Source of the DNA: an uncultured Gammaproteobacteria bacterium
Lineage (GTDB): Bacteria; Patescibacteriota; Microgenomatia; Woykebacterales; RBG-16-39-9b
Direction: 5' to 3'
Assembly (NCBI GenBank): GCA_965231125.1
Contig: OZ246414.1
Span: 281,512 to 345,511, forward strand
DNA length: 64,000 nt
Shown: in pieces, positions 2,449-44,582 of the stretch
Layout: each line of letters starts with the position of its first letter
Numbering within the stretch: position 1 is the first letter of the stretch
Notes under the pieces: generated by a model
Seen by the model: only the letters and a program-made list of their open reading frames with translations
Database searches by the model: none
Told to the model about the DNA's origin: nothing
Translations under genes and position numbers: made by a program

Positions 2449-2450
2449 GT

Positions 2451-4302: not shown

Positions 4303-4327
4303 TCAACATCTAGAAAGAGAGGGAGGA

Positions 4328-29851: not shown

Positions 29852-29998
29852 CTCTGAGCTAGGTAAAAAGCCGCTTAGCGCAGATTGATAACGTCATGTC
29901 CTTAGTTCAAGATAATAGCCGTTAGGCTATTCTTGAACGCAAGACACGCAGTAGCCAATTTCTGGTAGGAAATATCAGCTACGAGTGTCTTATAGTTC

Positions 29999-30027
29999 TT
30001 GACAATTAGCTTTGTTTGTGCTATAAT
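29999..30027 (+). promoter_or_regulatory. Strong sigma70-type promoter for the DGR target gene
   Basis: TTGACA (29999-30004), a 17-nt spacer, then extended -10 TGcTATAAT (30019-30027). Start codon about 70 nt downstream, preceded by AAGGAGAGGAGGG. Confidence 0.5.
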
Positions 30028-30095
30028 CTCGAGTATCGGCAAGCGCAACTTTCCGTAAGGAAAGGAGCTTTCAAGAAAGGAGAGGAGGGACACCC

Positions 30096-30941
30096 GTGGT
30101 TATACGGACACCCCAAACTCTAATAGATCTGAGAGTCTTGGACCTGGTAGGCCCACCAATGGCAGGGCTTCCTGAAGAGGTGCTTAAGCATCATCTCAGG
30201 AATCTCGAGCCGATTCATTGGGCGATCGGAGAAGTCGCCAGAAGTATGAGACTGGGTGAAGTCGATCGCCAGCAACTCAGAATGGTCCTCCAAGGGATCA
30301 GACTGCCGGCTCCGACGATAGTTATCCCCGAAGCACAGCTTCCCGCAAACGACCCGCTCCGGCAAGTGTTCCCGACCGGCGGTTGGTACATGAAGTGCCC
30401 GCCCGGAATCGATCTGGTTCTGCTCCACCAGAGCGTCGGCCAGTTCGGGGCAGATGTGCGTTTCTACCGGCAGAACGATTCGGATCCGTGGTTTCTTAAG
30501 AGCTACGGAGAATGGTCGCCAGAGGGTAAGGGAAGTGAAGTGCAGCGGCTCACCACCCACTCGTGCCACCTCTTCATCCCAGACCCTTCGCAGTGGCTGT
30601 TCCCAGACAGCAAGGGCCTGCGTCGTGACGATTGCCTGCAGATGCAGCGCGAGTTCGAGAAGAAGTTGCCAGACGGTCGGACTTGTCCGGAACCGTCACT
30701 GGAGACTTTGGCTCTCGCGGCTTTCGAGTACCATCGGCAGCATCCGAGCCAGTGGCCACTTCGTGGCCCTAACTACGCCCGTTGCGCCAATCGCTTCGGC
30801 CGGGGTGGCTGGCTCGACGGTGGTGGCTTCGATCCGCGCGGTTTCGGCGTCAGCGGCTGGGGCGGGCTCGGCGGTGGCAATCTCGGTGCCTTGCGCTGGG
30901 TAGTGTGGTACGACGAAGAGGAGGCAGAGCAGGCCGCCTAG
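30096..30941 (+). CDS. DGR target (variable) protein; the C-terminal region carries the VR
   Basis: GTG start. Markedly GC-rich compared with the flanks. Its last ~40 codons (…GWLDGGGFDPRGFGVSGWGGLGGGNLGALRWVVW…) align to the TR with adenine-specific differences. Confidence 0.7.
   Translation: MVIRTPQTLIDLRVLDLVGPPMAGLPEEVLKHHLRNLEPIHWAIGEVARSMRLGEVDRQQLRMVLQGIRLPAPTIVIPEAQLPANDPLRQVFPTGGWYMKCPPGIDLVLLHQSVGQFGADVRFYRQNDSDPWFLKSYGEWSPEGKGSEVQRLTTHSCHLFIPDPSQWLFPDSKGLRRDDCLQMQREFEKKLPDGRTCPEPSLETLALAAFEYHRQHPSQWPLRGPNYARCANRFGRGGWLDGGGFDPRGFGVSGWGGLGGGNLGALRWVVWYDEEEAEQAA
30791..30906 (+). repeat. DGR variable region (VR)
   Basis: 116 bp, gapless alignment to the TR at 31759-31874 with 22 mismatches, all at TR adenines. 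The 3' 29 bp (CAATCTCGGTGCCTTGCGCTGGGTAGTGT) is identical and GC-rich, resembling an initiation-of-mutagenic-homing (IMH) element. Confidence 0.85.
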
Positions 30942-31016
30942 CTCTCGGACCTGGAAAACTTGGACCTTCTGGAATCTTGGTCCTTGGTTCCTTCGCCCGC
31001 AGAAAAAGATTCCAAC

Positions 31017-31066
31017 CCGACCCCGTTTCTCAAACACGTTGCGAGAAACGGGGTCTTTCTTTTCTC
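31017..31066 (+). terminator. Strong bidirectional hairpin terminator
   Basis: 13-bp perfect stem GACCCCGTTTCTC / GAGAAACGGGGTC followed by TTTCTTTTCTCTC. It lies between the convergent target and GIY-YIG genes. Confidence 0.55.
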
Positions 31067-31069
31067 TCG

Positions 31070-31366
31070 TTATTCTGGCTTGTCCAGAATCTGTCCGTAC
31101 AAATCTTTGAAATTAGGATTAAACTTCTTTATCATCTTAATCTTATCTATTCGGTTCATGTCCTTAATTTGTTTCTCTCTGATGATTGCTTGGTTAATAT
31201 TGGTAAGAATTTCAAAGTAAACTAGTTTGTACAGGTTGTATTTTGCAGTGAAACCTTTTGCAACATGGTTTTTGTGTTGCCAAACACGTTTTACTAAATT
31301 ACTAGTTACACCTGTATAAAGTGTTGGTCTATCATTGGCCATTATGTAAATATAACCAGGGTTCAT
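31070..31366 (-). CDS. GIY-YIG nuclease family protein
   Basis: Begins GYIYIM...LYTGVTSNLVKRVWQHK. A short free-standing URI domain sitting inside the DGR cassette. Confidence 0.75.
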   Translation of the reverse strand: MNPGYIYIMANDRPTLYTGVTSNLVKRVWQHKNHVAKGFTAKYNLYKLVYFEILTNINQAIIREKQIKDMNRIDKIKMIKKFNPNFKDLYGQILDKPE

Positions 31367-31512
31367 CCGGCTAATTATAAAAGATTCTGGATGCGTTCTG
31401 TGAGACAGAACTTACCAGAATGACTTGCGATGAAAAAACGTCACTCTGGCTTGACCAGAGTCTTTTTGAGAAAGATTCTCCGAGTCAGTAACACTTTTCC
31501 ATAATGACAAAG

Positions 31513-31521
31513 TGGTATAAT
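31513..31521 (+). promoter_or_regulatory. Candidate extended -10 promoter (TGgTATAAT) that could drive the TR transcript
   Basis: About 240 nt upstream of the TR on the TR strand, with no clear -35. Confidence 0.25.
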
Positions 31522-31758
31522 TCTCGTGGAGACAAGTTTAAGTATCAGCGGTCAAGGCTTCTGGTCGCTTTTCTCTCTACAATCTCCTTTAGTCCGGAAC
31601 TCTAAACGACTAAGGTCATTAGAGGTGTGATAAAGATTGCTAGACACTCCTTGCCTTTTCCTAGATCCCCCTACGCTAAAAGCTGCGGTGGGACGATAAA
31701 ATTCAATCCCTAGAAGTTTTCAAAGGATGGTGGGTGCTAGAAGGGAAAGGGCAACATT

Positions 31759-31874
31759 TCGCTACGGCCAGAGTAACTGGCTCAACGGTGGTAACTTCGA
31801 TCCGAACGGTTTCAACGTCAACAACTGGGACGAGAACGGCAATGACAATCTCGGTGCCTTGCGCTGGGTAGTGT
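31759..31874 (+). repeat. DGR template region (TR)
   Basis: Adenine-rich (28 A in 116 bp, many as AAC codons). 22 of those A positions are substituted in the VR. The ORF-track entry at 31727-31927 is an artefact of the TR. Confidence 0.85.
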
Positions 31875-31891
31875 CTAGAGGAAAAAGACGT

Positions 31892-32275
31892 CTAGGTGGT
31901 TTTGGCTTGTTTGATCCAGCCACCTAGCATCTTACCGATCTCTATTAAGAGATTCTCAAAAGAGAGATATTTTTGTTGATTGATTGCTCTAGTCTCAAAG
32001 GAGAGGCGCAATAGTATTTTTAAAACGTCCAGTTTGGCTGAGGCTCTTTCCAGGTAAACAAGTTTTTCGTTTTTACTCTTATAGCCTGCAAGTAGAACCA
32101 ATTCGAGAATTTCTAGGTTTAGGTCTGCACATTTTTGACCTACAGTGTAGCGATCTTGCCGAGGAAAATGTTTGAGAGCTTCGTGAAGGTTTTTATAAAA
32201 ATCGTAGGTCTTCTGAAATATGGGAATATCTAAATTACTTGAGTGGGGGGGGTCGAGTTGAAAACCTTTACTCAT
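31892..32275 (-). CDS. avd: DGR accessory variability determinant (Avd-like four-helix-bundle protein)
   Basis: 127 aa with the helix-pair pattern typical of four-helix-bundle proteins. Lies between the TR and the RT, on the opposite strand. Confidence 0.7.
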   Translation of the reverse strand: MSKGFQLDPPHSSNLDIPIFQKTYDFYKNLHEALKHFPRQDRYTVGQKCADLNLEILELVLLAGYKSKNEKLVYLERASAKLDVLKILLRLSFETRAINQQKYLSFENLLIEIGKMLGGWIKQAKTT

Positions 32276-33382
32276 CTTAGCTTTCTTAAGCGCCGAGCGC
32301 GTAGCGATCTATACAAGAAGGTTATCTCACTTCCCAATCTTTTTCAAGCTTGGGATGAGTTTAAGAAGGGGAAAAGAAAAAAGATTGATGTTGGAGAATT
32401 TGAGAGACATCTGGAAGACAATATTTTTGAACTGCGTCGGGAGTTGTTGACTAAAACCTACCGACACTCCTCTTACACCGGTTTTTACATTACCGATCCC
32501 AAAGTCCGCCATATCCACAAAGCGATTGTTCGCGACCGAATTGTTCACCACGCCCTATTCAAAGTTCTCAATCCCATCTTTGAACCTACTTTCATTTCTG
32601 ATTCTTTCTCTTGCCGAAAGGGATATGGAACTCATAAAGGATTTAAGAAGTTGGTTGTCTATGCCCGAAAAGTTAGCAAGAATTACACCCAAGATGGTTG
32701 GGCTTTAAAATGCGATGTAAAAAAGTTTTTTGACAGTGTTAATCATAAAGTTTTGCTAGAAATAATTAAAAGAAAGATTAAAGAAAAAGATCTGCTCTGG
32801 TTACTGGAAGAAATAGTTGGAAGTTTCTGCACTTGTCATTCTGAGGTAAAACCGAAGAATCTGAGATCCTTCGCTAATGCTCAGGATGACGATTATTGTA
32901 AAGGTATTCCCATTGGGAATCTGACTAGCCAACTCTTCGCCAACGTTTATCTTAATGAGCTAGACCAGTTTGTCAAAAACGAATTAAAGGCTAGATACTA
33001 TATCCGCTACGCTGATGATCTCCTTATCTTAATCGAAAACACAAAGGGTTTAGTCCAATATACTGGTATATTGGACAAGTTTCTTGAGGACAGGTTAAAA
33101 TTGGAACTGCATCCAAACAAAATTTCCTTGAGGAAACTGCCTTGGGGAGTCGATTTTGTTGGTTATATCGCTTTACCACATTATCAAGTTTTGAGAACCA
33201 AGACTAAAAGAAGAATTTATCGAAAGATTCGAGAAAGGATTTTTAGTTACAATGCAAAAAACATTAACTACGAATCCTTAAACCAATCCATCCAGTCTTA
33301 CTTGGGGATTTTGAAGCACGCTAATACACATAAGTTAGAACAGAATTTAAGAAATCAAATATATTTTTGGTTAACGGCTTAA
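32243..33382 (+). CDS. DGR reverse transcriptase
   Basis: RT motifs including the DGR-specific IGNLTSQLFANVYL (SQ in place of QG) and the YADD box (YIRYADDLLIL). About 375 aa with no maturase or endonuclease domain. The start is GTG 32243 or TTG 32258. Confidence 0.85.
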   Translation: MGGVELKTFTHLSFLKRRARSDLYKKVISLPNLFQAWDEFKKGKRKKIDVGEFERHLEDNIFELRRELLTKTYRHSSYTGFYITDPKVRHIHKAIVRDRIVHHALFKVLNPIFEPTFISDSFSCRKGYGTHKGFKKLVVYARKVSKNYTQDGWALKCDVKKFFDSVNHKVLLEIIKRKIKEKDLLWLLEEIVGSFCTCHSEVKPKNLRSFANAQDDDYCKGIPIGNLTSQLFANVYLNELDQFVKNELKARYYIRYADDLLILIENTKGLVQYTGILDKFLEDRLKLELHPNKISLRKLPWGVDFVGYIALPHYQVLRTKTKRRIYRKIRERIFSYNAKNINYESLNQSIQSYLGILKHANTHKLEQNLRNQIYFWLTA

Positions 33383-35489: not shown

Positions 35490-35990
35490 TTAGCGACTTA
35501 CACTAATCGTTGGAGGGCTGCCTTGGCCGTTTGGATCTTCAGCATTTGGTGCAGACACTGTCACTCTGTTCGCCGAGTTTTTCTTAACTGAGTAACCAGT
35601 ATCGTAAGGACTACTGCAGGTAGTGTAAGTGAAACCGCCACTTGGTAGTGGATCTGTTGGCAGCGCTGATAGGTAGGTTGGTACTAGATCAGAACAAATA
35701 TCTGCTCCGGTGTTGCTGACTACTGCGGAGGTTGTGGCGATGCCAGTCGGCAGTCGACCGTTTTCAGAATAAAATTGGCCAACTGCATTTAATAAGGCTA
35801 AAGCATCAGATCTTCGTTGGGTATTTCGCGCTAAAATAAATTGTCTTGGTGGGTTAACGGCGATTAAAACAATTGCGAGCAAAATAGCCAAAATTCCGAT
35901 TACAACTAAAAGTTCTATCAGGGTGAAACCTACCTGAGATTTTTTGTGAGAGGATTTTTTACTTGGGTTTGTTAAGGGCAGAAACATCAC
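35490..35990 (-). CDS. Type IV pilin (prepilin-type N-terminal cleavage/methylation domain)
   Basis: Class III signal: G, then FTLIELLVVIGILAIL. Confidence 0.75.
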   Translation of the reverse strand: MMFLPLTNPSKKSSHKKSQVGFTLIELLVVIGILAILLAIVLIAVNPPRQFILARNTQRRSDALALLNAVGQFYSENGRLPTGIATTSAVVSNTGADICSDLVPTYLSALPTDPLPSGGFTYTTCSSPYDTGYSVKKNSANRVTVSAPNAEDPNGQGSPPTISVSR

Positions 35991-37423
35991 TTTTTACCTA
36001 TAATTACCTGCGCATCTACCGCGGAAGAGTTTCCGATGGACCCCCCGTTAACTACAGTATATCTACTTGATAAATCCTTTGTCAAGAGAGATAGGTACTC
36101 TGTTTTGGATTTTTTAAGTCTAATTTCTGTTTTTATAAAGTTATAATTTGCTGCGTTGCCAGTGGAAACAACTCTGTAACCTTTTGCTTCAAGAAAATCT
36201 TTAGCTTCAGAAGCTGCTCCGGGTACGCCGTTGCCGTTTAGGACCTCAATTTTAAAGTCAGATCTTTTTAAGGCTACCTTAACAGCCGGTTTTTTTGCCG
36301 CCGCCGGTGTAGATTGTTTTGGTTTTTCCACTTTTGCGGAGGTACTGGCTGAGACACTTGCAGAAGTAGTAGACTGCCTAGCAGTGGAAACAGTCGACGG
36401 AACTTTTGTCGATTCATTTTTTGCCGCCGAGTTATTCAATACCTTGGATCCAAACCAAACCAGGAGTATAAGAATTAAAACCGTTGCGATAGCACCAAAA
36501 ATCATTTTCAAGTTGAGCTTTGGGAGTTCCACCGACTCAGCTGCTTTAACTAAGGTGTCTTTGATATGAAAAGCGGGTATTTGTTTTGGTAGACCGGCGG
36601 CAGCGGCTAGTTTCTTAAATCTAACTAAATCTTGGCTTGCAATAGCCACTTTACCTAGTGATATACCAAAAGGTTTAGCGGCAATACTGCCTTCTGTTAA
36701 AATATTAACAATTTCGTCTTCGTTTTCTCCAACTACCCAAGTCTCAAAATCGAGTTTTTCAGAAAGATTTTTAATCTCACTTGTGACGATTTCTTTAACC
36801 CAGCTGGTTAGCTTAGCTTTTTCGACAGCCGCCTCCTTAAACTTTTTGGTGGTGGTGAAGTAAATTCCACCTTCAAAGATTACAACAAGAAGAAGGGTTT
36901 CCCCCTCCATAGATAAAATCAAGGTTGGTTTAATAGCTTTTTCAAGAAACGGAAGGAAGATGGTGGGTTCCAAAACAATGGAGTGAATCTCTAAACCTAC
37001 TTCTTTAAAAAGTTTTTGATAGGCTGAGATTAAATCTCGTGGAGTTGCGGCAAGCTGAATGTTTTTATTCGGTAGTAGCCTCAAACTAGTAAAGCTTCCC
37101 GCAAGTGGGTAGGGAACTTCCTCTTGCAACTCGCGGTTTTTGAGAAGCTGCTCCTGGTCAGTGGCAATTTTCAGTACTTTTAGAAAACCAGCTTCTTCAC
37201 TGAGCAAAACTGTTATGGGATGCGATTTTAAAGAAGGATTTTGCTTAATAATGTCGGAAAGTTTTGATTTTACTTGCTCAAAGTTGACAATTGCGCCCTC
37301 TTCTATCAGCCCAGCCGGCAGTTCTTCATAGAAACCTTCCAAAATATCAAAACTAGAACCCTCTTTTTCAACTAAAGCAGCTTTTATAAATTTTTCCCTG
37401 AAACTGAAAATAATCTCTTTCAT
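35987..37423 (-). CDS. PilM-like type IV pilus assembly protein fused to a transmembrane segment and a LytR_C-like C-terminal domain
   Basis: Actin-like N-terminal ~330 aa, one transmembrane helix, a Ser/Thr-rich linker, then the LytR C-terminal pattern KIEVLNGNGVPGAA..A..L...GY.V. Confidence 0.5.
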   Translation of the reverse strand: MKEIIFSFREKFIKAALVEKEGSSFDILEGFYEELPAGLIEEGAIVNFEQVKSKLSDIIKQNPSLKSHPITVLLSEEAGFLKVLKIATDQEQLLKNRELQEEVPYPLAGSFTSLRLLPNKNIQLAATPRDLISAYQKLFKEVGLEIHSIVLEPTIFLPFLEKAIKPTLILSMEGETLLLVVIFEGGIYFTTTKKFKEAAVEKAKLTSWVKEIVTSEIKNLSEKLDFETWVVGENEDEIVNILTEGSIAAKPFGISLGKVAIASQDLVRFKKLAAAAGLPKQIPAFHIKDTLVKAAESVELPKLNLKMIFGAIATVLILILLVWFGSKVLNNSAAKNESTKVPSTVSTARQSTTSASVSASTSAKVEKPKQSTPAAAKKPAVKVALKRSDFKIEVLNGNGVPGAASEAKDFLEAKGYRVVSTGNAANYNFIKTEIRLKKSKTEYLSLLTKDLSSRYTVVNGGSIGNSSAVDAQVIIGKK

Positions 37424-37448
37424 AAGGAATAGTCTTCGCGTACTATTT

Positions 37449-37820
37449 TTAAGGCTTTTCTTTCCAGGATAGCACTTTAACTTGGCTCCCAGCTGTGTCG
37501 GCTGTTACTTCAAGTGTTCTGGTCTCATTGCTAGTTGAGGCCTCAGAATCGATAGTGTTTATTGTACCATTTTTGGCAATTGTAATATCAACGTTTACAC
37601 CATTTATAGACAGCGTGTCGTGTGAGTAATCTGGGTTCCTCAGCAGCCCTAACAAAGCTTCTTCCGCTCCGGATTCCGCCGCAAAGTAAACATTGTTTGA
37701 AACACCCGACCTGCCGGCCGTTTGCGAAAGGCTTGTTGCCACCAAGGAGGCGGCGAAAGCCAAACTGGCCACAGCCATAATTAACAAAATTGAAACTAAA
37801 GCTTGACCTTTTTGATTCAT
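37449..37820 (-). CDS. PilX-like minor pilin (hypothetical)
   Basis: Begins MNQKGQALVSILLIMAV, a PilX-style N-terminus. Confidence 0.4.
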   Translation of the reverse strand: MNQKGQALVSILLIMAVASLAFAASLVATSLSQTAGRSGVSNNVYFAAESGAEEALLGLLRNPDYSHDTLSINGVNVDITIAKNGTINTIDSEASTSNETRTLEVTADTAGSQVKVLSWKEKP

Positions 37821-38329
37821 CTTATACCTACCACTGTGTTAAAGTTTTGGGTTTTAGGACCCTCGGTTGAGCTTCCTGATAAGGTAAAATCAATCAACAC
37901 TGTGGGTTTTCCTTCGGCGCTACCAATACTCGTGAATTTTAAATTTGAAGCAGTAACTAGACTTCCGGTTATGGGTACTGCCGAGCTTGCAGGTGCTTGT
38001 AAATTTATTTCTGGTCCGGAAAGCGAGTAGATGTAATTATCCGCCCCGATTTTTAAGTTTAAGATTGAGCCGGAATCTCCGGGACTGCCCGGGCTGACGA
38101 TCTTATCCGCCCGTCGTATATCGTAAGCTAGCCTTTCTAGAACGAAATTTCCTTCAATCACAACACTACTTTTTGATTTAGATTCTAAAAAGCTTTCCGA
38201 AATTGACAAAAAGAGGTTAGTAATTATCAAAAGAATCACGGACAGAAGTCCAAAGTAGACTATTATTTCTATAAGAGTAAACCCGTCTAAATTTTTTCTA
38301 CTAAGTTTTGTTTGAGACTTAATTTTCAT
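37817..38329 (-). CDS. Prepilin-type minor pilin/pseudopilin
   Basis: G, then FTLIEIIVYFGLLSVIL. Confidence 0.6.
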   Translation of the reverse strand: MKIKSQTKLSRKNLDGFTLIEIIVYFGLLSVILLIITNLFLSISESFLESKSKSSVVIEGNFVLERLAYDIRRADKIVSPGSPGDSGSILNLKIGADNYIYSLSGPEINLQAPASSAVPITGSLVTASNLKFTSIGSAEGKPTVLIDFTLSGSSTEGPKTQNFNTVVGIR

Positions 38330-38331
38330 AA

Positions 38332-40206
38332 TTACGGAGAATAATTAACGCTCGTGTTTTGTAAAATTGGTGTAGCGTTTCCACCGCTAGTAAAGGTTAC
38401 TTTGTATCTGAAGTATTGGCCACTCACATAACTGAGTGGTATGGAGGCCGGATTTTGGTAGGATGTGCTATTTGTTCCATCAGGTCCAACCCAGTTCCAC
38501 GTTGCGTTGTTATTATTCGTGGCTATTTGGAAGGCTAGGCTTGTACCAGCCGGCACTTGGGCTGTCCAATTTAAGTAATTAAATCCAGCGTTTGCTCCCG
38601 CGTCAAAAGTTGGGGATTCATATGTTCCGAAGTTTTGGAAGCCAACTGAACTACTACCCGAAACAATTTGAAGCTCAGCTGAATTTGCTGAAGAGGCTAA
38701 GTACGCATAGCCATTAAATATTGCGACAGCTAAGGCGTCAGCTCCAAGGTTAATAGAGCTATAAATGAAAGAGCTGCCTGGCACATTAAGATCAATAATC
38801 TTCAACTGCGAGCCAGTTTGTCCGTTAGCTACAAAAGCAAGACTGCCAGAAACATACACGCTATAAGCGGTTCCACCGACCCCGTAGGTCCGCACAAGAT
38901 TTATGTTTGGAAGGTTACTAACATTTAAAACATAGACATTAGAACCAGCTGCAAGGTATGCTGTACCGTCTACAACATAGACACTTAGGGCGGCAAAAGG
39001 TCCGGAGGTGTTGTAATAGCCCACCACCGATGGCTGGGCAGGGTTGGAGATATTGAGAACTTTGAGTTCAGCTGTATTACTGGTTGAGGCAACGTAAGCG
39101 AAATTACCCGAGATGAACGCATCTCTTGTGGTAGACCCCAAGTCCGTACCACCTATCAGATTAGGTGCCACTGGGTTAGAGACATCAATAGTGTAAAACT
39201 CATAACCTGGTGCAGCAGTATTATTATTTGTAACCAAATAGACCGTGCTACCCGACGAAGCAACGCTGCGAGCATCACTATTTGAGGACGGGGTATCAAA
39301 GTGATTTCCGTAGAGTTTTGGATTTGTCGGGTCAGATACGTCTACAACTGTAAGTTCCCGGTGATCGTCAGAGGTAGCGATGTAGGCGTAATTTTCGGAA
39401 ACAACCACAGAATGACCTGTGGATCCAAGGTCCAGAGACCCCAAAAGGGTTGGGCTTGTGCCGGTGGTCGTGTCATAAATAAAGAAGTCGGCTCCAGACC
39501 TAGACTCTGTTACTAAGTAGGCTTTTCCACAGCTAACAAATACATCAAGAGCGTCCTGCGGTCCGGGAAAGTCCCTACTCGCTATTATAGTAAGCGATTT
39601 CCAATTGGTAACGGGAGCTGAAAGCAGCTGAATTTCCCCACCACTGGTATTGGTCACTTTGGTGCAGACAGTTGACCCCTTTAAGAAGTCAGTGTCACTA
39701 GTCTGCTGCCAAGTGGTGTTACCTAAGTACCGGGTTAAATAAAAAGTTTGGCCTACACTTCCGCCAAAAAAGGAAGCCCATGAGGTAGTTACGGTTACCT
39801 TTTTGGTGGAAGGATCCACGCGCCCCGTAGGGCATTCAACTAGGGCGTTGGAGTTGTCACGACAAGCAGAGGCTAAATTGATTTGTCTGGTAAGGCCAGA
39901 TACCGTCTCTGGTCCTAAAACTAAACTCCACCTTGTACCCGTATTAACCACATGGTAAGTACCATTTTTTAAATTTCCCCAACCCCCTTCCCTTACGGAT
40001 CGTACGGCTTCCGCCTGCATAAGAGCCGAAGTTTGCGCTGTTAGAATATTCGCCGCTTGATCGCGATTTTCCCTCACGCCTATCAGTAGTAGGCCGACGC
40101 TACCTAAAACAATAATTAATATTCCAAAACCAACAACGAGTTCCACCAAAGCCTGACCTTTGTTTTCGTTAAAAGACTCTAGTCCAGCTAGCCTGCTAAT
40201 TAACAT
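38332..40206 (-). CDS. Large minor pilin / pilus-tip protein with an LVIVD-repeat beta-propeller
   Basis: Prepilin-like N-terminus (KGQALVELVVGFGILII) and at least five repeats of the form ELTVVDVSDPTNP / ELKVLNISNPAQP / EFYTIDVSNPVAP (LVIVD repeats). Confidence 0.55.
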   Translation of the reverse strand: MLISRLAGLESFNENKGQALVELVVGFGILIIVLGSVGLLLIGVRENRDQAANILTAQTSALMQAEAVRSVREGGWGNLKNGTYHVVNTGTRWSLVLGPETVSGLTRQINLASACRDNSNALVECPTGRVDPSTKKVTVTTSWASFFGGSVGQTFYLTRYLGNTTWQQTSDTDFLKGSTVCTKVTNTSGGEIQLLSAPVTNWKSLTIIASRDFPGPQDALDVFVSCGKAYLVTESRSGADFFIYDTTTGTSPTLLGSLDLGSTGHSVVVSENYAYIATSDDHRELTVVDVSDPTNPKLYGNHFDTPSSNSDARSVASSGSTVYLVTNNNTAAPGYEFYTIDVSNPVAPNLIGGTDLGSTTRDAFISGNFAYVASTSNTAELKVLNISNPAQPSVVGYYNTSGPFAALSVYVVDGTAYLAAGSNVYVLNVSNLPNINLVRTYGVGGTAYSVYVSGSLAFVANGQTGSQLKIIDLNVPGSSFIYSSINLGADALAVAIFNGYAYLASSANSAELQIVSGSSSVGFQNFGTYESPTFDAGANAGFNYLNWTAQVPAGTSLAFQIATNNNNATWNWVGPDGTNSTSYQNPASIPLSYVSGQYFRYKVTFTSGGNATPILQNTSVNYSP

Positions 40207-40642
40207 TTACAGCTCCAAATCTGTTTATTGTAAAAGTTTTGGTTTCGCCAGAGGCGCTTTTTAAAATAAAACTTCCGCCGGAAGTTTCTCCAGATAACCT
40301 TGAAAAGAGCACGTTACCTCCCGGTGCGTTAATCGATTCAATTGATAGGCTAGGATCCAGTGTGGTAACCAAGTTAGTACTGCTACTTGGGTTGTAAGAA
40401 CTACCGTCGAAAAGAACAAATTTACCCCTGTCAAAATGGACGCCGGAAGTTTCTTGTCCTGAGGCCGCCAAATTCTGGGCTTCTTTCAAAGTGACGTAGA
40501 TCAGATTTTCGCTGGAACTTATATCAGCAAAAGCTTTTGGTCTGCTAAGATTTACTAAAAGCAACGTGCTAATAATTGAAAACAGAGCGACAGCAACCAT
40601 TAGCTCCACTAAAGTAAACCCTTTTGAGGCACCAGACTTCAT
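40196..40642 (-). CDS. Prepilin-type pseudopilin
   Basis: KGFTLVELMVAVALFSII. Confidence 0.6.
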   Translation of the reverse strand: MKSGASKGFTLVELMVAVALFSIISTLLLVNLSRPKAFADISSSENLIYVTLKEAQNLAASGQETSGVHFDRGKFVLFDGSSYNPSSSTNLVTTLDPSLSIESINAPGGNVLFSRLSGETSGGSFILKSASGETKTFTINRFGAVNVN

Positions 40643-41727
40643 GTTGGGTTTATTTGAGAAATAAGTTGATAAATTGGTGCTATGATTGATAGTATTACGG
40701 CGGCAACAATAACACCAACAATAATAATCAGGGCAGGTTCTAAAACTACAGAAAATGATTTAATTTCTCTTTCAAGTTTATCTTGGTAGTAAACCGAAAC
40801 TTCGGACAAAACTTTATCTAGATTACCAGTTTTTTCTCCGGTCCCGATTATCCGGCTCATAAGCGCGGGAAAAGTTTTATATTCTCTTAAAGAGCCGGCT
40901 AGAGATTTACCCCCCGTTAGTTTGTGGGCTACTTCTCCCAACTCTTCTTTGGTAGTCTTGTTAACTACAACTGTCGTTGCCCTTTCGACACCCTCTATAA
41001 TTGGTACACCAGCTGATAGAAGAAGAGCTAAGGTGGAGGAGAATCTTGATAGGTCGACATATCTTAAAATGCCACTAAAAAAAGGTAGGCGGAAGCCTAA
41101 AGTTATGATCCTTTCTCTAAAAGATTTGTTTGAGAATAGAAATAATGTTAGGGCAGCTAAGATAGCGATTCCTAGACCAAAGATTAGATAGTATCTATGA
41201 ATCGATAAAGCGACTGCCAAAAATATTCTTGTCGGAAGAGGTTTGGGAACATTTAAGCGCGTAAATATTACAGCGACTCTTGGGACAACAAAACCAAAAA
41301 GTACCACTAAGACAACTGCTAGAACTCCCAAGACTATTGCTGGGTAAAGCATAGCTGCCTTTACGTCACTCTTCAGCTTATCAATATCTCTAAGGTTTTT
41401 GACTAGTTGCAAAAGTACTTTGTCTAAATTTCCACTTTCCTCACCGGCTTTTACCGTATTTATAAAAATTGGGTCGAATATAGCGGGAAACTGGGAAAAA
41501 CTTTCCGCAAGGCTCTGCCCCGATTGGACGGAATCTATAACAGCGCCAATTACAGATTTTGAGTTTTTCGAGAGAGAATCGTCTTTAACTGCTTCAAGAG
41601 CTTCTAGTATAGGGATACCGGAAGAAAGCATAATTGACAAACTCTCGATGAACGTAAGCTTTTCGATAAAGGGAAGCCGAAGCTTTTGAGGAATTATTTT
41701 TGGTTTTTTATCTTCGTTATTTGGCAT
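40639..41727 (-). CDS. pilC: Type IV pilus platform protein PilC (GspF family)
   Basis: Two T2SSF-type repeats and three transmembrane helices. 362 aa. Confidence 0.85.
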   Translation of the reverse strand: MPNNEDKKPKIIPQKLRLPFIEKLTFIESLSIMLSSGIPILEALEAVKDDSLSKNSKSVIGAVIDSVQSGQSLAESFSQFPAIFDPIFINTVKAGEESGNLDKVLLQLVKNLRDIDKLKSDVKAAMLYPAIVLGVLAVVLVVLFGFVVPRVAVIFTRLNVPKPLPTRIFLAVALSIHRYYLIFGLGIAILAALTLFLFSNKSFRERIITLGFRLPFFSGILRYVDLSRFSSTLALLLSAGVPIIEGVERATTVVVNKTTKEELGEVAHKLTGGKSLAGSLREYKTFPALMSRIIGTGEKTGNLDKVLSEVSVYYQDKLEREIKSFSVVLEPALIIIVGVIVAAVILSIIAPIYQLISQINPT

Positions 41728-41741
41728 TTGGGCAAGTCCTA

Positions 41742-43427
41742 CTACTCTCTAACCGCCTGAATCACTTCTTCGATTGTGGTCAGTCCGGACGCAACTTTTG
41801 CAAGGCCATCCTCAACCATCAGTTTAAAACCTTCAGCGTGAGCTACTTCCAGAATTTTTTGAATAGAAGCTTTTTCAAAAATTAATTTTTTAATATTTTC
41901 GCTTACCTCTAAAACCTCAAAAATACCGATCCGCCCTCTAAAACCCGTCCCGGAACACTCTTGACAACCCTTGCCTCGCCTGGCCTCAACTGTTCCACCC
42001 AAAAATGGGGCAACCACTTCTTTACCAAATTCTGTGGCCAGGCCCTGGAGAACCTCCTCTTTAATAACATCTTTTACCAAACAAGACGAGCAGTTTCGAG
42101 CAACCAGCCGTTGGGATATAACCAAATTTAAAGTAGAACCAATTAGATATGGTTGGGCTCCCAGATCGTAAAGCCGGGGAATTGTGCTGATAGCATCGTT
42201 AGTGTGAAGTGAAGAGAGCACAAGGTGTCCAGTCAAGGCGGAATGAATAGCAATTTCTGCCGTCTCCTCGTCTCTTATCTCACCAACTAATATGACGTTG
42301 GGGTCGTGACGAAGTATTGATCGTAGTCCTGAAGCGAAAGTTAGGCCGGCTTTTGGATTTATCTGCATTTGGTTTACCCTAGTCAATCCGTATTCTATCG
42401 GGTCTTCAATTGTACAGATATTAACTCCGGCGGTATTTATTAAAGTTAGTATGTTATATAAAGTTGTGGTCTTTCCGCTTCCCGTCGGGCCGGTGGAAAG
42501 AACCATACCGTGAGATTTTTGAATACCTTCTTTTACTAATTGTAAATTGGCTCCGGTTAAACCCAAGTCTTCTAGAGTTTTAGGGCGGGCGGCTGCCGAG
42601 AGAAGGCGTAAAACAGCATCTTCTCCATGAAAAGTTGGCAGCACCGAAACCCTAACCGATATTTCATCGGTTCTGTGTTTAAAACGAAATCTTCCGTCTT
42701 GAGGAGTTCGATGTTCGTCGGTTCTTAGATTAGACAATATTTTTATGCGGGTTATCAATCCGGCTTGAATACTCTCTGGCAGATCTAAAACATCGCGGAG
42801 TTTCCCATCTACTCTGAAGCGGATAATTATTTTTTCGCCGATGTTTTCAATATGGATGTCGCTCGCTCTTTCCGAGGCACCAAACTCCAAAATCGTGTCT
42901 AAAATTTTCACGACCGGAAGATCTTCACCACCCAAAGAAGAGTCCTTAGCGCCAGTAAGGTTTTCCTCGACTGTCTTTTGGAAATCTTTCTTTATATCCG
43001 CGTTGTATTGATCCAAAAGCTCATTAATTATCGATGGTAGGGTAAAATAGACTTCGACTGGCCCTCTCAATTTTTTCTTAACAAAGTCGACTGTTTCAGG
43101 ATCCTGCGGATTTTCGAAGGCCACTTTGAGTTTTGAGCCTTCTTTATCAAAAACCGCAGCCCTCTTCTTAGTGGCTACTTCCTCTGGTAAAAGATCACGG
43201 ATTTCTTTTTTGATAACGCGGTCACGAAGGTCTGCGTATGGGTATCCGGCTGCCTCCGCCAAAATTTGGCCGAGAAATTTTTCTAAAATCACACCCCGCT
43301 CAATTAGTTCGTCACTTAGAGGTTTCCCAAGGTCAGTTGCAGCTTTTTCAGCCTCGGCTAGTTCTGCCGGATCTACCAATCCGGATTTGAGAATAAGTTT
43401 CTTAAGTTCATCATTTTCAAGTATCAT
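41742..43427 (-). CDS. pilB: Type IV pilus assembly ATPase PilB (GspE family)
   Basis: Walker A GPTGSGKTTT, Asp and His boxes, and a tetracysteine motif CSSC...CQEC. Confidence 0.9.
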   Translation of the reverse strand: MILENDELKKLILKSGLVDPAELAEAEKAATDLGKPLSDELIERGVILEKFLGQILAEAAGYPYADLRDRVIKKEIRDLLPEEVATKKRAAVFDKEGSKLKVAFENPQDPETVDFVKKKLRGPVEVYFTLPSIINELLDQYNADIKKDFQKTVEENLTGAKDSSLGGEDLPVVKILDTILEFGASERASDIHIENIGEKIIIRFRVDGKLRDVLDLPESIQAGLITRIKILSNLRTDEHRTPQDGRFRFKHRTDEISVRVSVLPTFHGEDAVLRLLSAAARPKTLEDLGLTGANLQLVKEGIQKSHGMVLSTGPTGSGKTTTLYNILTLINTAGVNICTIEDPIEYGLTRVNQMQINPKAGLTFASGLRSILRHDPNVILVGEIRDEETAEIAIHSALTGHLVLSSLHTNDAISTIPRLYDLGAQPYLIGSTLNLVISQRLVARNCSSCLVKDVIKEEVLQGLATEFGKEVVAPFLGGTVEARRGKGCQECSGTGFRGRIGIFEVLEVSENIKKLIFEKASIQKILEVAHAEGFKLMVEDGLAKVASGLTTIEEVIQAVRE

Positions 43428-43792
43428 TTGGAGTACTCTTTAATTTTATCAACAACATCTTGCGGAGTAATTTCTGTTTTCATCAGCACTTCTTTTGCCC
43501 CTAGCTCTCGGCACTTAGTTACCTCCTCCTCGGTTATACTCAGATTAGTCAGAACAATCACCGGGATGTCTTTTGTTTTTGGATCCTCTTTTAATTTTTC
43601 CAGTACTTGAGCCCCGCTTATCTTGGGTAGCATAATGTCTAAAATAATGGTGTCTGGGTTAGTAGTCTTTGCCTTTTCCACACCTTCTTCGCCATCCAAG
43701 GCCGTTTCCACATCGAAGCCGTCGTGGGTGAACTTCATGTCGTACATTTTTACCATTAAAGAATCGTCTTCAATAAGAAGGACTTTAGCCAT
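43424..43792 (-). CDS. Single-domain response regulator (CheY-like receiver)
   Basis: KVLLIEDD...DIMLP. Confidence 0.8.
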   Translation of the reverse strand: MAKVLLIEDDSLMVKMYDMKFTHDGFDVETALDGEEGVEKAKTTNPDTIILDIMLPKISGAQVLEKLKEDPKTKDIPVIVLTNLSITEEEVTKCRELGAKEVLMKTEITPQDVVDKIKEYSK

Positions 43793-44582
43793 TTTCCTCC
43801 TGCTTTAGCCTTGCGGCAACTTCCGCCGCTTTTGAACTACCTGCGATTGGCAACGAAAAACAAAACCGGGTACCTTTACCTGGGTAAGACTGCGCAAGCC
43901 AAATTTTGCCACCAAGTTTTTCAATAAATTTTTTGGAAACATAAAGACCCAAGCCACTACCTCCAGAAATTCTGTTTTCCTTTGGGGATGCTTGCGAAAA
44001 TTTTTCAAAGAGTTCTTTTTGCTTATCGACAGCTATTCCTGGGCCGGTATCAGCCACACTAGTGATTACAAATCCGCCTTCTTGAGCAAAACTTACCTTA
44101 ATCTCTCCATCCCGAGTAAATTTCATTGCGTTACCCACTAAATTTATTAGTACTTGTATTAGCTTATCGGAATCCGCTTGAACTTTTGATAACGGAGAAA
44201 CCGGTTCTTCAAGAACCAAAGTAAGATGCTTTTCTTGGGCTGCTATTTTCAGCGAATGGAGAAGTAATTTGGATTGCTCCACCACGTCGACATTCTGCCG
44301 AAGGGTGAAAGGCATTCGCCCGCTTTCCAGACGCCCTATTTCAAGCATACCGTTTACCAAGCGAATTTCTCGTTCGATTGCTAAGAGCATTTCGGTGAGC
44401 ACATCTTTAACTTCTTTGGATATTGGTCCTGCGTCCCCGGCAATAAGCATGGTCAAGTAACCTTTTATCGTGGACATCGGAGTGCGCAGCTCATGGGAAA
44501 CAATTGAAATGAATTCGTCTTTTACTGTGTCAACACTATCTTTTTGCGAAGGGTTGGTGGAAGGTAGATCTTGATTTTCCAT
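43785..44582 (-). CDS. Cytoplasmic histidine kinase
   Basis: H-box SHELRTP plus N, G1 and G2 boxes (NLVGNAMKF; GTGPGIA; GGSGLGL). No transmembrane segment. Confidence 0.8.
   Translation of the reverse strand: MENQDLPSTNPSQKDSVDTVKDEFISIVSHELRTPMSTIKGYLTMLIAGDAGPISKEVKDVLTEMLLAIEREIRLVNGMLEIGRLESGRMPFTLRQNVDVVEQSKLLLHSLKIAAQEKHLTLVLEEPVSPLSKVQADSDKLIQVLINLVGNAMKFTRDGEIKVSFAQEGGFVITSVADTGPGIAVDKQKELFEKFSQASPKENRISGGSGLGLYVSKKFIEKLGGKIWLAQSYPGKGTRFCFSLPIAGSSKAAEVAARLKQEENG

What the first reader, a model, noticed from the sequence alone, without database searches (positions are those of the whole stretch)
30096..30941. DGR target gene is a GC-rich island in an AT-rich genome and has no obvious secretion signal
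The target ORF and only that ORF is strikingly GC-rich; it spawns many spurious overlapping ORFs in the track at 30120-31225. The adjacent GIY-YIG, avd and RT genes are AT-rich like the host. The target has no N-terminal signal peptide or transmembrane segment, so the diversified domain (…GFDP.GF.V..W……NLGALRWVV, CLec-like) may act inside the cell or be exported some other way. A compositionally foreign target next to native-composition DGR machinery suggests either horizontal acquisition of the target or strong compositional bias.
Basis: seen in the sequence. Interest (0 to 1): 0.55.

Follow-up and report, generated by a model that had tools for sequence, protein, structure and literature searches.

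The report
GC-rich DGR target gene module
This is the hypervariable-protein gene of a diversity-generating retroelement in an ultra-small (CPR) bacterium; its high GC content is real and is shared by every relative found, so it is a long-kept property of the gene and not a sign of recent foreign origin.

Summary
ORF 30096-30941 has GC 0.60 and GC3 0.67, against 0.43 and 0.40 for 60 window ORFs (z about 4.4). It is the only 1-kb bin in the window above 0.52.

Simple horizontal acquisition is not supported. All eight other DGR-type family members I could examine (41-55% identical, different neighbourhoods, some without a DGR nearby) are the same kind of island: GC 0.55-0.62 against flanks of 0.37-0.43. 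Synonymous sites are saturated in both target and RT, yet RT and Avd 1 kb away stay AT-rich. No relative was found in a GC-rich, viral or reference genome. Among 35 targets of related CPR DGRs, a distinct subset of 11 shows the same island.

The cause is unresolved: selection on composition, biased gene conversion (alleles are mosaic), or an unsampled reservoir.

Side finding: variable-length simple repeats sit at the avd/RT junction and look like an on/off switch.

The parts
29989..30027 (+). Left edge of the target module: the conserved motif CTTATAGTT, then the promoter TTGACA-17-TGcTATAAT
   Evidence: The promoter scan scores 12 of 12 with an extended -10. The YTATAGTT motif and the -35/-10 boxes are conserved upstream of all homologues, and similarity stops upstream of this motif.
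30035..30095 (+). Conserved 5' UTR with RBS (AAAGGAGAGGAGGG, 30076-30089); GC 0.52
   Evidence: The block ...GGCTTTCAA(R)GAAAGGAG..GGGACACCC-GTG is conserved in 8 loci. There is no Rfam match. The fold is no better than shuffles (z -1.25). The start of the transcript is inferred from the promoter.
30096..30941 (+). DGR target (variable protein) gene, 281 aa, GC 0.60. A weakly modelled helical N-terminus of about 70 aa is followed by a CLec/FGE-like domain (about residues 71-275).
30791..30906 (+). Variable repeat (VR), GC 0.72; its last 30 nt are identical to TR
   Evidence: An ungapped 116-nt match to TR has 22 mismatches, all at TR adenines: 18 A>G, 2 A>C, 2 A>T. Six of the 28 TR adenines are unchanged.
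30962..30983 (+). Conserved inverted repeat GGACC-N12-GGTCC downstream of VR; a candidate homing hairpin
   Evidence: It appears in the minimum-energy fold. It is conserved in all loci, including orphan targets, with one compensatory A-T to G-C change in L005. It is not canonical: 5-bp stem, 12-nt loop, 56 nt after VR, against a 7-10 bp stem, 4-nt loop and 4-34 bp distance in phage DGRs (PMC3240598). Its role is inferred.
31019..31065 (+). Intrinsic terminator (13-bp stem GACCCCGTTTCTC/GAGAAACGGGGTC plus a T-run); right edge of the module and of the GC island
   Evidence: Fold (z -2.78 for 30936-31072). Conserved in all homologous loci.
31070..31366 (-). Small GIY-YIG nuclease gene (98 aa), an insertion into the cassette
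   Evidence: Pfam PF01541, E 2.3e-12. In L001, L007 and L008 the terminator is followed directly by the conserved TR leader. About 450 nt are extra in the window, and L005 carries a remnant.
31513..31569 (+). TGGTATAAT box and conserved leader GGAGACAAGTTTAAGTATCAGCGGTCAAGGCTTCTGGTCGC (with a hairpin at 31547-31569) upstream of TR; probably the 5' part of the TR RNA
   Evidence: The sequence is conserved after the terminator in L001, L007 and L008. The hairpin is listed by the scan. The role is inferred.
31759..31874 (+). Template repeat (TR), 28 adenines, 10 AAY (Asn) codons in the target's reading frame
   Evidence: the codons can be read in the ORF 31727-31927 translation. Each VR matches only its own TR at non-A positions.
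31892..32275 (-). Avd accessory gene (127 aa), on the opposite strand to TR and RT (the B3 architecture typical of CPR)
   Evidence: Pfam bAvd PF22296, E 5.8e-20. 77-92% identical to Avd in the related cassettes. For the architecture see Wu et al. 2018, PMC5758913.
32245..32252 (.). Poly-G(8) tract inside the Avd N-terminal codons (Pro-Pro) and 5 nt upstream of the likely RT start TTG at 32258
   Evidence: It is the only G/C run of 7 or more in the 64 kb. A simple repeat of variable length sits at this position in 28 of 45 related cassettes.
32243..33382 (+). DGR reverse transcriptase (ORF from GTG 32243; probable start TTG 32258), GC 0.38
   Evidence: Pfam RVT_1, E 1.1e-20. The IGNLTSQ and YADD motifs can be read in the translation. 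43 related RT loci were found, nearly all in Patescibacteria MAGs; the best is a Woykebacteria MAG at 63%.

Best explanation
The region is the target module of a CPR-type (Patescibacteria) diversity-generating retroelement. The module is self-contained: its own consensus promoter, a conserved 5' UTR, a 281-aa ORF, a conserved 3' inverted repeat and a terminator.

How the element works. The protein has a weakly modelled helical N-terminus and a C-type-lectin/FGE-like domain, whose last roughly 50 residues are rewritten by the element. TR RNA (31759-31874) is reverse-transcribed by the RT with Avd, adenines are miscopied (here mostly to G), and the cDNA replaces VR (30791-30906). That varies about 15 residues of a ligand-binding surface. 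With no signal peptide or membrane segment, the protein most likely works in the cytoplasm or leaves the cell by a non-Sec route. This localisation is inferred.

What the GC island is. It is not a scar of recent import. It is a stable, inherited property of this target module, held far above the host's composition (GC3 about +0.27 to +0.35) through at least one full turnover of synonymous sites. Meanwhile RT and Avd, 1 kb away, stay at or below host GC. Some force that favours fixation of G/C over the transcription unit must therefore oppose the host's AT-biased mutation.

My preferred cause. I lean to selection on the nucleotide composition of the expressed gene, for example on mRNA level or stability. 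I give this about 0.4 of the total. Recombination-associated GC-biased conversion is the main alternative. Which force acts is not shown.
For: DGR identity:
- TR/VR is 116 nt with 22 of 22 mismatches at TR adenines.
- bAvd and RVT_1 Pfam hits.
- IGNLTSQ and YADD motifs in the RT.
- Related RTs lie in CPR MAGs with the same layout.

The island is conserved:
- The window gene and eight other DGR-type members (L001, L002, L004, L005, L007, L008, L057, L058) have GC 0.55-0.62 and GC3 0.60-0.76, against flanks of 0.37-0.43.
- Their neighbourhoods differ.

Maintenance, not decay:
- Fourfold sites differ by 0.59-0.73 between the window and the others, where saturation is about 0.71.
- RT fourfold sites differ by 0.56-0.67 but have GC4 of 0.28-0.42.
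- Polarised W>S and S>W counts are roughly balanced.
- Target GC weakly tracks host GC with an offset (rho 0.55, p 0.02, n 18).
- A and T are depleted equally at third positions, and all three codon positions shift.

Module-wide effect:
- The island runs from promoter to terminator.
- UTRs are intermediate, 0.42-0.58 against an intergenic background of 0.36-0.43.

A distinct class: among 35 related CPR targets the GC excess upstream of VR is bimodal. 24 lie at -0.01 to +0.08 and 11 at +0.11 to +0.20. In the 11, the island again coincides with the gene.

The one distant relative without a VR-type C-terminus (P0012) has host-like GC.
Against: - No direct evidence shows which force keeps GC high.
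- The mRNA is only weakly more structured than synonymous shuffles (z -0.5, -2.0, -1.9).
- Ribosomal-protein genes next to one cassette have ordinary GC, so translational selection does not favour G/C-ending codons in these organisms.
- A GC3 offset of about +0.3 in a single gene is far larger than any effect I know of for selection on GC or for biased conversion in bacteria (my own knowledge, not tested).
- Many related DGRs with the same architecture have host-like targets, so the property is not needed for DGR function. [quoted passage not shown]
- The polarised counts are small and parsimony is biased at this divergence; the control on RT shows the artefact.
- Only consensus assemblies were seen. 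Host assignments rest on flanking DNA, not on bins.
- Localisation rests on hydropathy alone.
Confidence: 0.6

Rival explanations
1. GC-biased gene conversion. The target module is exchanged and recombined often between strains and lineages, and mismatch repair in heteroduplexes favours G/C. That would drive the whole exchanged unit to high GC.
For: - Target alleles are clearly mosaic: L007 is 95% identical to L008 over nt 1-120, but 85-92% identical to L005 over nt 421-720.
- Modules have been shuffled relative to the machinery: window vs L005 is 92% for Avd but 52% for the target.
- Orphan modules occur in unrelated sites.
- The shift is symmetric (A and T both lost) and affects all codon positions and, partly, the UTRs.
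- The island's edges coincide with the unit of homology.
Against: - Avd and RT also show signs of exchange, yet are at or below host GC.
- The effect size is far beyond what has been reported for bacteria (my knowledge).
- Other target families in the same DGR clade are not GC-rich.
- Near-identical contig pairs show no differences at all in the target.
Confidence: 0.2
2. Foreign origin. The target, alone or repeatedly, is imported from a GC-rich donor or mobile-element reservoir and has not yet drifted to host composition.
For: - The composition is atypical, with sharp edges.
- The module is mobile and occurs as orphans.
- There are zero SNPs in the target, against 26 and 45 in the flanks, in two near-identical contig pairs. 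This could reflect recent arrival or a sweep.
- Roughly 20% of DGRs deviate by 5% or more from host GC, which has been read as transfer (Wu et al. 2018).
Against: - All nine DGR-type occurrences sit in AT-rich CPR-like DNA.
- A profile search of 1.84 billion representatives found 8 proteins. Every contig I could read is AT-rich.
- Nothing was found in 185,579 GTDB species genomes or in IMG/VR, by protein or by DNA motif.
- Each VR matches its neighbouring TR exactly at non-A positions.
- The AT-rich RT and Avd have diverged in parallel with the target.
- Synonymous sites are saturated without loss of GC.
Confidence: 0.12
3. A side effect of the DGR itself. Either the RT's A-to-G preference, or error-prone copying or repair spreading from VR, enriches G/C across the gene.
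For: - VR substitutions are G-biased: 18 of 22 here, and 57-59% across 35 VRs.
- VR is the most GC-rich part of the gene (0.72).
- Every target in the clade has at least a small GC excess.
Against: - The A>G share is the same in GC-rich and host-like targets, with no correlation (Spearman about 0).
- T is depleted as much as A at third positions, which adenine-specific mutagenesis cannot produce.
- GC is nearly flat along the gene, with no decay away from VR.
- Orphan copies without a nearby DGR are just as GC-rich.
- The target shows no excess variation between near-identical strains.
Confidence: 0.04
4. The GC content serves a second function encoded in the same DNA: an overlapping or antisense gene, or a structured RNA.
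For: Long open frames exist in other frames, for example 149 aa on each strand. The antisense frame is open for 166-258 codons in all homologues.
Against: - Those lengths are as expected from the amino-acid sequence and codon usage (p 0.05-0.9 in 300 synonymous shuffles).
- No Rfam match.
- mRNA folding energy is only weakly below synonymous shuffles.
Confidence: 0.04

Closest known systems
CPR (Patescibacteria) diversity-generating retroelements: 'DGR clade 2' of Roux et al. 2021, B3 architecture of Wu et al. 2018
   Same: - Layout of target, TR, inverted avd, then RT.
- A-specific TR/VR mismatches, with VR at the 3' end of the target.
- The target has no recognisable domain, signal peptide or membrane segment.
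- The RT is 45-63% identical to RTs in Woykebacteria, Woesebacteria, Levybacteria, Paceibacterota and other CPR MAGs.
   Different: - The target belongs to a very small family: about 10 members in 15 billion proteins, none in GTDB reference genomes.
- The whole target transcription unit is a conserved GC island. I found no report of this in the DGR papers I could search. Paul et al. 2017 could not be read.
- A GIY-YIG gene is inserted between target and TR.
TvpA (Treponema denticola, PDB 2y3c), Mtd (Bordetella phage BPP-1, 1yu0) and TaqVP (5vf4): DGR variable proteins with the C-type lectin / FGE-like fold
   Different: - No sequence similarity: no Pfam FGE-sulfatase hit, and no hit in a PDB sequence search.
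- Foldseek finds nothing significant.
- TvpA is a lipoprotein and Mtd a phage tail-fibre tip (both from my knowledge). This protein has no export signal and no phage context.
Horizontally acquired genomic islands recognised by atypical GC
   Same: Sharp compositional discontinuity, patchy distribution and variable insertion sites.
   Different: Only one gene long. No integrase or tRNA site. Composition is conserved across saturated divergence, with no drift towards the host. No donor was found.
Simple-sequence contingency loci (phase variation by slipped-strand mispairing, as in Neisseria, Campylobacter, Haemophilus). This applies to the side finding at 32245-32252.
   Same: Homopolymer, dinucleotide or pentanucleotide tracts inside the 5' coding region. 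Tract length differs between near-identical strains, and about one third are in frame.
   Different: The repeat sits in the accessory gene of a mutagenic retroelement, not in a surface-antigen gene. Switching was not observed directly, and homopolymer lengths in assemblies can be wrong.

Membership tests
Diversity-generating retroelement (DGR) | A template repeat and a variable repeat that differ almost only at adenines of the template | tested here: met
   116 nt, ungapped, with 22 of 22 mismatches at TR adenines. The same holds in L001, L005, L007 and L008.
Diversity-generating retroelement (DGR) | A reverse transcriptase of the DGR type next to TR (RVT_1 domain, [I/L]GxxxSQ motif, YxDD) | tested here: met
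   RVT_1 at E 1.1e-20. IGNLTSQ and YADD can be read in the translation. That these motifs mark DGR RTs is from my knowledge of the literature.
Diversity-generating retroelement (DGR) | Accessory variability determinant (Avd) | tested here: met
   PF22296 bAvd at E 5.8e-20, above its cut-off.
Diversity-generating retroelement (DGR) | VR at the 3' end of a protein-coding target, followed by an IMH-like constant segment and an inverted repeat | tested here: inconclusive
   VR ends 35 nt before the stop codon, and its last 30 nt are identical to TR. A conserved inverted repeat lies at 30962-30983. It is shorter-stemmed, larger-looped and further from VR than the characterised hairpins.
Diversity-generating retroelement (DGR) | Ongoing diversification (VR variants within a population) | not testable with these tools
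   Only consensus contigs were available. Two near-identical contig pairs have identical VRs.
C-type lectin / FGE-like fold DGR variable proteins (Mtd, TvpA, TaqVP) | CLec/FGE-like three-dimensional fold | tested here: met
C-type lectin / FGE-like fold DGR variable proteins (Mtd, TvpA, TaqVP) | Sequence membership of Pfam FGE-sulfatase, DUF1566 or another known VR-bearing domain | tested here: not met
   No Pfam family at E up to 0.01. No PDB sequence match.
C-type lectin / FGE-like fold DGR variable proteins (Mtd, TvpA, TaqVP) | Variable positions templated by AAY codons, so that no stop codons arise | tested here: met
   There are 10 Asn (AAC/AAT) codons in the TR reading frame, and 9 of them are changed in VR.
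Recently acquired genomic island | Atypical composition relative to the host | tested here: met
   z of about 4.4 for GC and GC3.
Recently acquired genomic island | Composition explained by a donor, with relatives in genomes of matching GC | tested here: not met
   No relatives outside AT-rich CPR-like contigs.
Recently acquired genomic island | Drift towards host composition with time in the host (amelioration) | tested here: not met
   GC3 of 0.60-0.76 is retained across fourfold-site divergence of 0.29-0.73, while RT in the same cassettes has GC4 of 0.28-0.42.
Sec/Tat-exported or membrane-anchored DGR targets | N-terminal signal peptide or transmembrane helix | tested here: not met
   The maximum Kyte-Doolittle 19-residue mean is 0.95, and the N-terminus is not hydrophobic. 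The same is true of nearly all 35 related targets. Dedicated predictors were not available.

The most novel reading that the evidence does not exclude
In several lineages of CPR DGRs, an active GC-favouring process (selection on composition or biased gene conversion) holds the target module at a compositional equilibrium about 0.3 GC3 units above its own genome and its own RT and Avd. If so, these modules are a compact natural test case for what sets GC content in bacteria. A separate possibility concerns the same cassettes: hypermutable simple repeats at the avd/RT junction may switch them on and off.
Probability: 0.55. Interest if true: 0.65.

Novelty: new member of a known kind. Interest (0 to 1): 0.5.

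Why it matters
The element itself is an ordinary CPR-type DGR with a new, very small family of variable proteins.

What is unusual is that one gene has kept a composition about 17 GC points (27-35 points at third codon positions) above everything around it. That includes the genes it works with, and it has lasted through complete turnover of its silent sites, in about nine different genomic contexts. Atypical GC is routinely read as evidence of recent gene transfer, including for DGRs. This case shows that reading can be wrong.

If the cause is selection or biased conversion, the module offers a small, well-delimited system for measuring that force in bacteria with AT-biased mutation.

The missing export signal adds nothing new. 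It is the known, still unexplained, pattern of CPR DGR targets.

Tried and rejected
1. A-to-G bias of the RT as the cause. The share of A>G is the same (57-59%) in GC-rich and host-like targets, with Spearman about 0.
2. Adenine-specific depletion from self-homing of target mRNA. A and T are depleted equally at third positions.
3. Overlapping or antisense gene. Alternative-frame ORFs are no longer than in synonymous shuffles.
4. Structured RNA. There is no Rfam hit, and the MFE z-scores are only -0.5 to -2.0.
5. Translational selection for G/C-ending codons. Ribosomal-protein genes beside the L005 cassette have ordinary GC.
6. Faster evolution of the whole target. Near-identical contig pairs have 0 differences in the target. 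Within the L001/L005/L007/L008 group the target (71-83% identity) is about as conserved as RT (68-80%).
7. Homology between this family and the second GC-rich target family. hhalign gives probability 1.5%.
8. First structure prediction with 7 sequences. pLDDT was 46.6 and the model was unusable.
9. Foldseek against PDB. Nothing significant.
10. PDB sequence search. Only chance hits to eL32.
11. Target family in GTDB genomes and viral contigs. None found.
12. Orphan VRs of L002 and L004 against the TRs in hand. No cognate TR found.
13. Paul et al. 2017, the main CPR DGR paper. It is not held in the library, so I cannot exclude that it mentions target composition.
14. Polarised substitution counts. 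Numbers are too small and parsimony is biased at this divergence, so I treat them as consistent with the conclusion, not decisive.
Full report
**1. The observation**

The ORF at 30096-30941 (+) has GC 0.603 and GC3 0.667. Sixty non-overlapping ORFs of the window average 0.429 (sd 0.040) and 0.403 (sd 0.059), so the gene is about 4.4 sd out on both measures. In 1-kb bins, 30001-31000 is 0.587 and every other bin of the 64 kb lies between 0.36 and 0.51.

At 300-nt resolution the rise starts near 30050 and the fall is complete near 31100. That is from just after a promoter to a terminator, not strictly the ORF. Avd (0.391), RT (0.377) and the GIY-YIG gene (0.32-0.39) are AT-rich.

Seven overlapping ORFs of at least 50 aa lie at 30120-31225. 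They are no longer than expected once amino-acid sequence and codon usage are kept and synonymous codons are shuffled (p 0.05-0.9).

**2. What is there**

*The repeats and the machinery.*
- VR (30791-30906) and TR (31759-31874) align without gaps over 116 nt.
- All 22 mismatches are at TR adenines: 18 to G, 2 to C, 2 to T. Six of the 28 adenines are unchanged.
- TR carries 10 AAY codons in the target's frame.
- Pfam identifies bAvd on the minus strand (31892-32275), RVT_1 (32243-33382) and a small GIY-YIG gene (31070-31366, minus strand). The target itself hits nothing.
- The RT has the IGNLTSQ and YADD motifs.

The order is target, TR, inverted avd, RT. This is the B3 architecture that Wu et al. 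2018 found in 90% of CPR DGRs.

*Origin of the window.* RT relatives retrieved from GTDB genomes are nearly all from Patescibacteria MAGs; the best is a Woykebacteria MAG at 63%. The window comes from a 116-kb JGI metagenome contig.

*Anatomy of the target unit.*
- Promoter: a 12-of-12 sigma-70 match with an extended -10 at 29999-30027.
- 5' UTR: about 60 nt, with a strong RBS, leading to the GTG start at 30096.
- Downstream: an inverted repeat GGACC-N12-GGTCC (30962-30983) and a 13-bp-stem terminator (31019-31065).

All of these, from a YTATAGTT motif just before the -35 box to the terminator, are conserved in every homologous locus. Similarity to other loci stops at those two edges. So the unit is a discrete module of about 1.08 kb.

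The GTG start is supported by conservation of the N-terminal residues and of the ACCC-GTG context. The database gene call from M22 is probably too short.

The GIY-YIG gene is an insertion. In L001, L007 and L008 the terminator is followed directly by a conserved leader (GGAGACAAGTTTAAGTA.CAGCGGTCAAGG...), which in the window lies at 31528-31568.

**3. The protein**

The family is tiny. A word-indexed search of 5.8 billion clusters gave 7 proteins. A profile search of 1.84 billion representatives gave 8.

AlphaFold with 7 sequences failed (pLDDT 46.6). With 13 sequences it gave pLDDT 72 and pTM 0.70, with most of residues 71-250 and 261-270 at 75-95.

Hydropathy shows no signal-like or membrane segment (maximum 19-residue mean 0.95). 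The same is true for almost all 35 targets of related CPR DGRs. Roux et al. 2021 already state that CPR clade-2 targets typically lack transmembrane or other recognisable domains, and that it remains open whether they are truly not membrane-bound. This part of the finding is correct but not new.

**4. The GC island is a property of the family**

I read the DNA around every homologue I could locate.

| Locus | Protein | Neighbourhood | Gene GC / GC3 | Flank GC |
|---|---|---|---|---|
| L001 | P0002 | next to a type IV pilus-like operon | 0.581 / 0.692 | 0.370 |
| L002 | P0006 | orphan between an ABC transporter and a DNA-alkylation repair gene | 0.579 / 0.693 | 0.411 |
| L004 | P0007 | orphan between two fpg genes | 0.619 / 0.762 | 0.433 |
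| L005 | P0005 | inside the rplKAJL ribosomal cluster | 0.595 / 0.709 | 0.408 |
| L007 | P0004 | next to a PDDEXK gene | 0.602 / 0.736 | 0.424 |
| L008 | (no id) | complete DGR cassette | 0.575 / 0.691 | 0.396 |
| L057 | P0010 | orphan between leuS and tsaD in NCBI MAG GCA_001816975.1 | 0.579 / 0.649 | 0.409 |
| L058 | P0009 | short contig (1584 nt) | 0.548 / 0.595 | 0.404 |

 In every case the rise and fall coincide with the module.

The one distant relative whose C-terminus is not of the VR type and which lacks the module's UTRs (P0012, 28% identity) has host-like GC: 0.456 and GC3 0.388, against 0.431.

An assembly chimera is excluded. The pattern recurs in independent samples and assemblers, and each VR matches its neighbouring TR exactly at non-A positions.

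**5. Why recent transfer does not explain it**

- Between the window gene and the others, 0.59-0.73 of conserved fourfold-degenerate sites differ. For this composition, saturation is about 0.71. Silent sites have turned over, yet every lineage keeps GC3 of 0.60-0.76.
- The RT genes of the same cassettes are as diverged (0.56-0.67 of fourfold sites) but have GC4 of 0.28-0.42. Avd and RT have GC3 of 0.37-0.44 throughout.
- Within the L001/L005/L007/L008 group, target, RT and Avd identities run roughly in parallel (71-83, 68-80 and 82-92%).
- Polarised counts in the closest trios give about as many W>S as S>W changes. The per-site W>S rate is about 2.5 times the S>W rate, which predicts an equilibrium near the observed GC. 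The numbers are small and parsimony is biased at this divergence, as the RT control shows, so I treat this only as consistent.
- Target GC rises weakly with host GC, with an offset (rho 0.55, p 0.02, n 18). That fits in-place evolution better than import from one donor.
- No relative was found in any GC-rich context. None appeared in 185,579 GTDB species genomes or in IMG/VR, by protein or by the hairpin DNA motif.

**6. What the bias looks like, and what it is not**

Third-position A falls from 0.27 to 0.10-0.15, and T from 0.33 to 0.13-0.19. First and second positions shift as well. The gene looks as if it lived in a 58-60% GC genome.

That symmetry rules out adenine-specific mutagenesis. 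The G preference at mutated adenines is general in this RT clade (57-59%) and does not correlate with the island.

GC is nearly flat along the gene. The UTRs are intermediate (0.42-0.58 against an intergenic background of 0.36-0.43), but they contain functional GC-rich motifs.

The mRNA is at most weakly more structured than synonymous shuffles (z -0.5, -2.0, -1.9). Ribosomal-protein genes next to the L005 cassette have ordinary GC. [quoted passage not shown] 2011), so no known step of the DGR mechanism asks for a GC-rich gene body.

**7. How general it is**

I used the RT to fetch 43 loci and a script that finds A-biased repeat pairs. This identified 35 targets.

With VR excluded, the GC excess over the locus is bimodal. 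Twenty-four targets lie at -0.01 to +0.08 and eleven at +0.11 to +0.20.

The GC-rich class comprises:
- this family;
- most of a second family with no detectable similarity to this one (hhalign probability 1.5%);
- a few singletons.

In these loci the island again equals the target gene, and RT and avd are at or below host GC. On a rough RT tree the GC-rich class occupies several clades, and one large clade is uniformly host-like (the tree has no support values).

So the property recurs but is not generic to DGRs. I found no mention of it in the DGR literature I could search. Paul et al. 2017 was not available.

**8. Recombination**

Target alleles are mosaic. L007 is 95% identical to L008 over the first 120 nt, but 85-92% identical to L005 over nt 421-720.

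The window's Avd is 92% identical to L005's, while the targets are 52% identical. Modules have therefore been exchanged relative to the machinery. The resident TR would then overwrite an incoming VR; this step is inferred.

This makes GC-biased gene conversion a live alternative. Against it, Avd and RT also appear to recombine without becoming GC-rich.

**9. Verdict on mechanism**

The following are shown or well supported:
- This is a CPR-type DGR target module encoding a CLec-like variable protein without an export signal.
- Its GC richness is conserved and maintained, not a recent import.

The cause of the maintenance is not shown. I lean to selection on the composition of the expressed gene. 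Biased conversion comes second, an unsampled GC-rich reservoir third, and DGR side effects or a second encoded function are unlikely.

**10. Things seen on the way**

*A repeat at the avd/RT junction.* The most notable side finding is a simple repeat at the divergent avd/RT junction. The window has G8 at 32245-32252, the only G/C run of 7 or more in 64 kb. It encodes Pro-Pro near the Avd N-terminus and lies 5 nt before the likely RT start (TTG 32258).

At the same place, related cassettes carry G7 to G16, (GT)n of up to 23 units, or (CCTGT)7. L005 and L006 are 99.4% identical contigs that differ there by six G.

Of 28 cassettes with a repeat, Avd is in frame with a start codon in 10 and out of frame in 18. 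Cassettes without a repeat start Avd directly before the conserved DIPIF motif.

One third in frame is what random tract lengths give, as at phase-variable contingency loci. It is also what assembly errors in homopolymers could give, so read-level data are needed. I found no paper linking DGRs and repeat-mediated phase variation.

*Other items.*
- The same pilus-like operon lies near the cassette in both the window and L001.
- The L004 orphan module sits between two fpg paralogs with a 91-nt flanking repeat.
- Two near-identical contig pairs have no differences at all in the target, against 26 and 45 in the flanks.

Noticed in passing
window 32245-32252; same position in L001, L005-L008, L020-L053: A simple repeat sits at the divergent avd/RT junction, inside the Avd N-terminal codons and just upstream of the RT start. 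It is poly-G of 7-16 in 22 of 46 loci (G8 in the window), and (GT)n or (CCTGT)7 in others. L005 and L006 are 99.4% identical and differ by six G. Of 28 cassettes with a repeat, Avd is in frame in 10 and out of frame in 18. This looks like a phase-variable on/off switch for the DGR. I found no report of it. Assembly error in homopolymers is not excluded.
   Followed up: partly
window 31070-31520: The GIY-YIG gene and its flanks (about 450 nt) are an insertion between the target terminator and the conserved TR leader. L001, L007 and L008 lack it, and L005 has a remnant of its 3' end. It is probably a selfish homing-endonuclease-like gene, not part of the DGR.
   Followed up: partly
window 31513-31569: A TGGTATAAT box is followed by a leader conserved across cassettes (GGAGACAAGTTTAAGTA.CAGCGGTCAAGGCTTCTGGTCGC). 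It contains a hairpin followed by a T-run, about 190 nt upstream of TR. It may be the 5' part of the TR RNA.
   Followed up: no
window 35987-44582 (-) and L001 1-8804 (-): The same type IV pilus-like operon lies within a few kb of the DGR cassette in both genomes, but at opposite ends of the operon. Its genes are LytR_C, two pseudopilins, a large LVIVD-repeat protein, T2SSF, T2SSE, a response regulator and a histidine kinase. This may be chance, or a functional link for a variable protein that lacks a Sec signal.
   Followed up: partly
L004 4136-7013 (and the near-identical L011): An orphan, internally deleted copy of the target module (222 aa) sits between two fpg paralogs. A 91-nt direct repeat (89% identical) flanks the target-plus-fpg2 segment, which suggests insertion or duplication by recombination.
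   Followed up: no
L002 vs L003 and L005 vs L006: In contig pairs that are 99.4-99.6% identical, there are 26 and 45 differences in the flanks and none in the target gene, VR included. About 8 would be expected if differences were spread evenly. Either the DGR is mostly silent, or the module was recently shared or swept.
   Followed up: no
L059 1912-2661 (P0012): A distant relative of the target (28% identity over the CLec core) has no VR-type C-terminus, none of the module's UTRs and no DGR nearby. Its GC is host-like (0.456, GC3 0.388, against 0.431). This is the only non-DGR-type member seen.
   Followed up: partly
L019, L030, L034, L037, L047 (RT/avd regions): RT and avd in many cassettes are even more AT-rich than the rest of their locus, for example 0.25-0.35 against 0.37 in L030. 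The cassettes therefore hold both compositional extremes side by side.
   Followed up: no
L005 and L006 (cassette at about 1600-4650): A whole DGR cassette is inserted inside the conserved nusG-rplK-rplA / rplJ-rplL ribosomal gene cluster. This matches the remark by Wu et al. 2018 that some CPR DGRs are interleaved with ribosomal protein genes.
   Followed up: no
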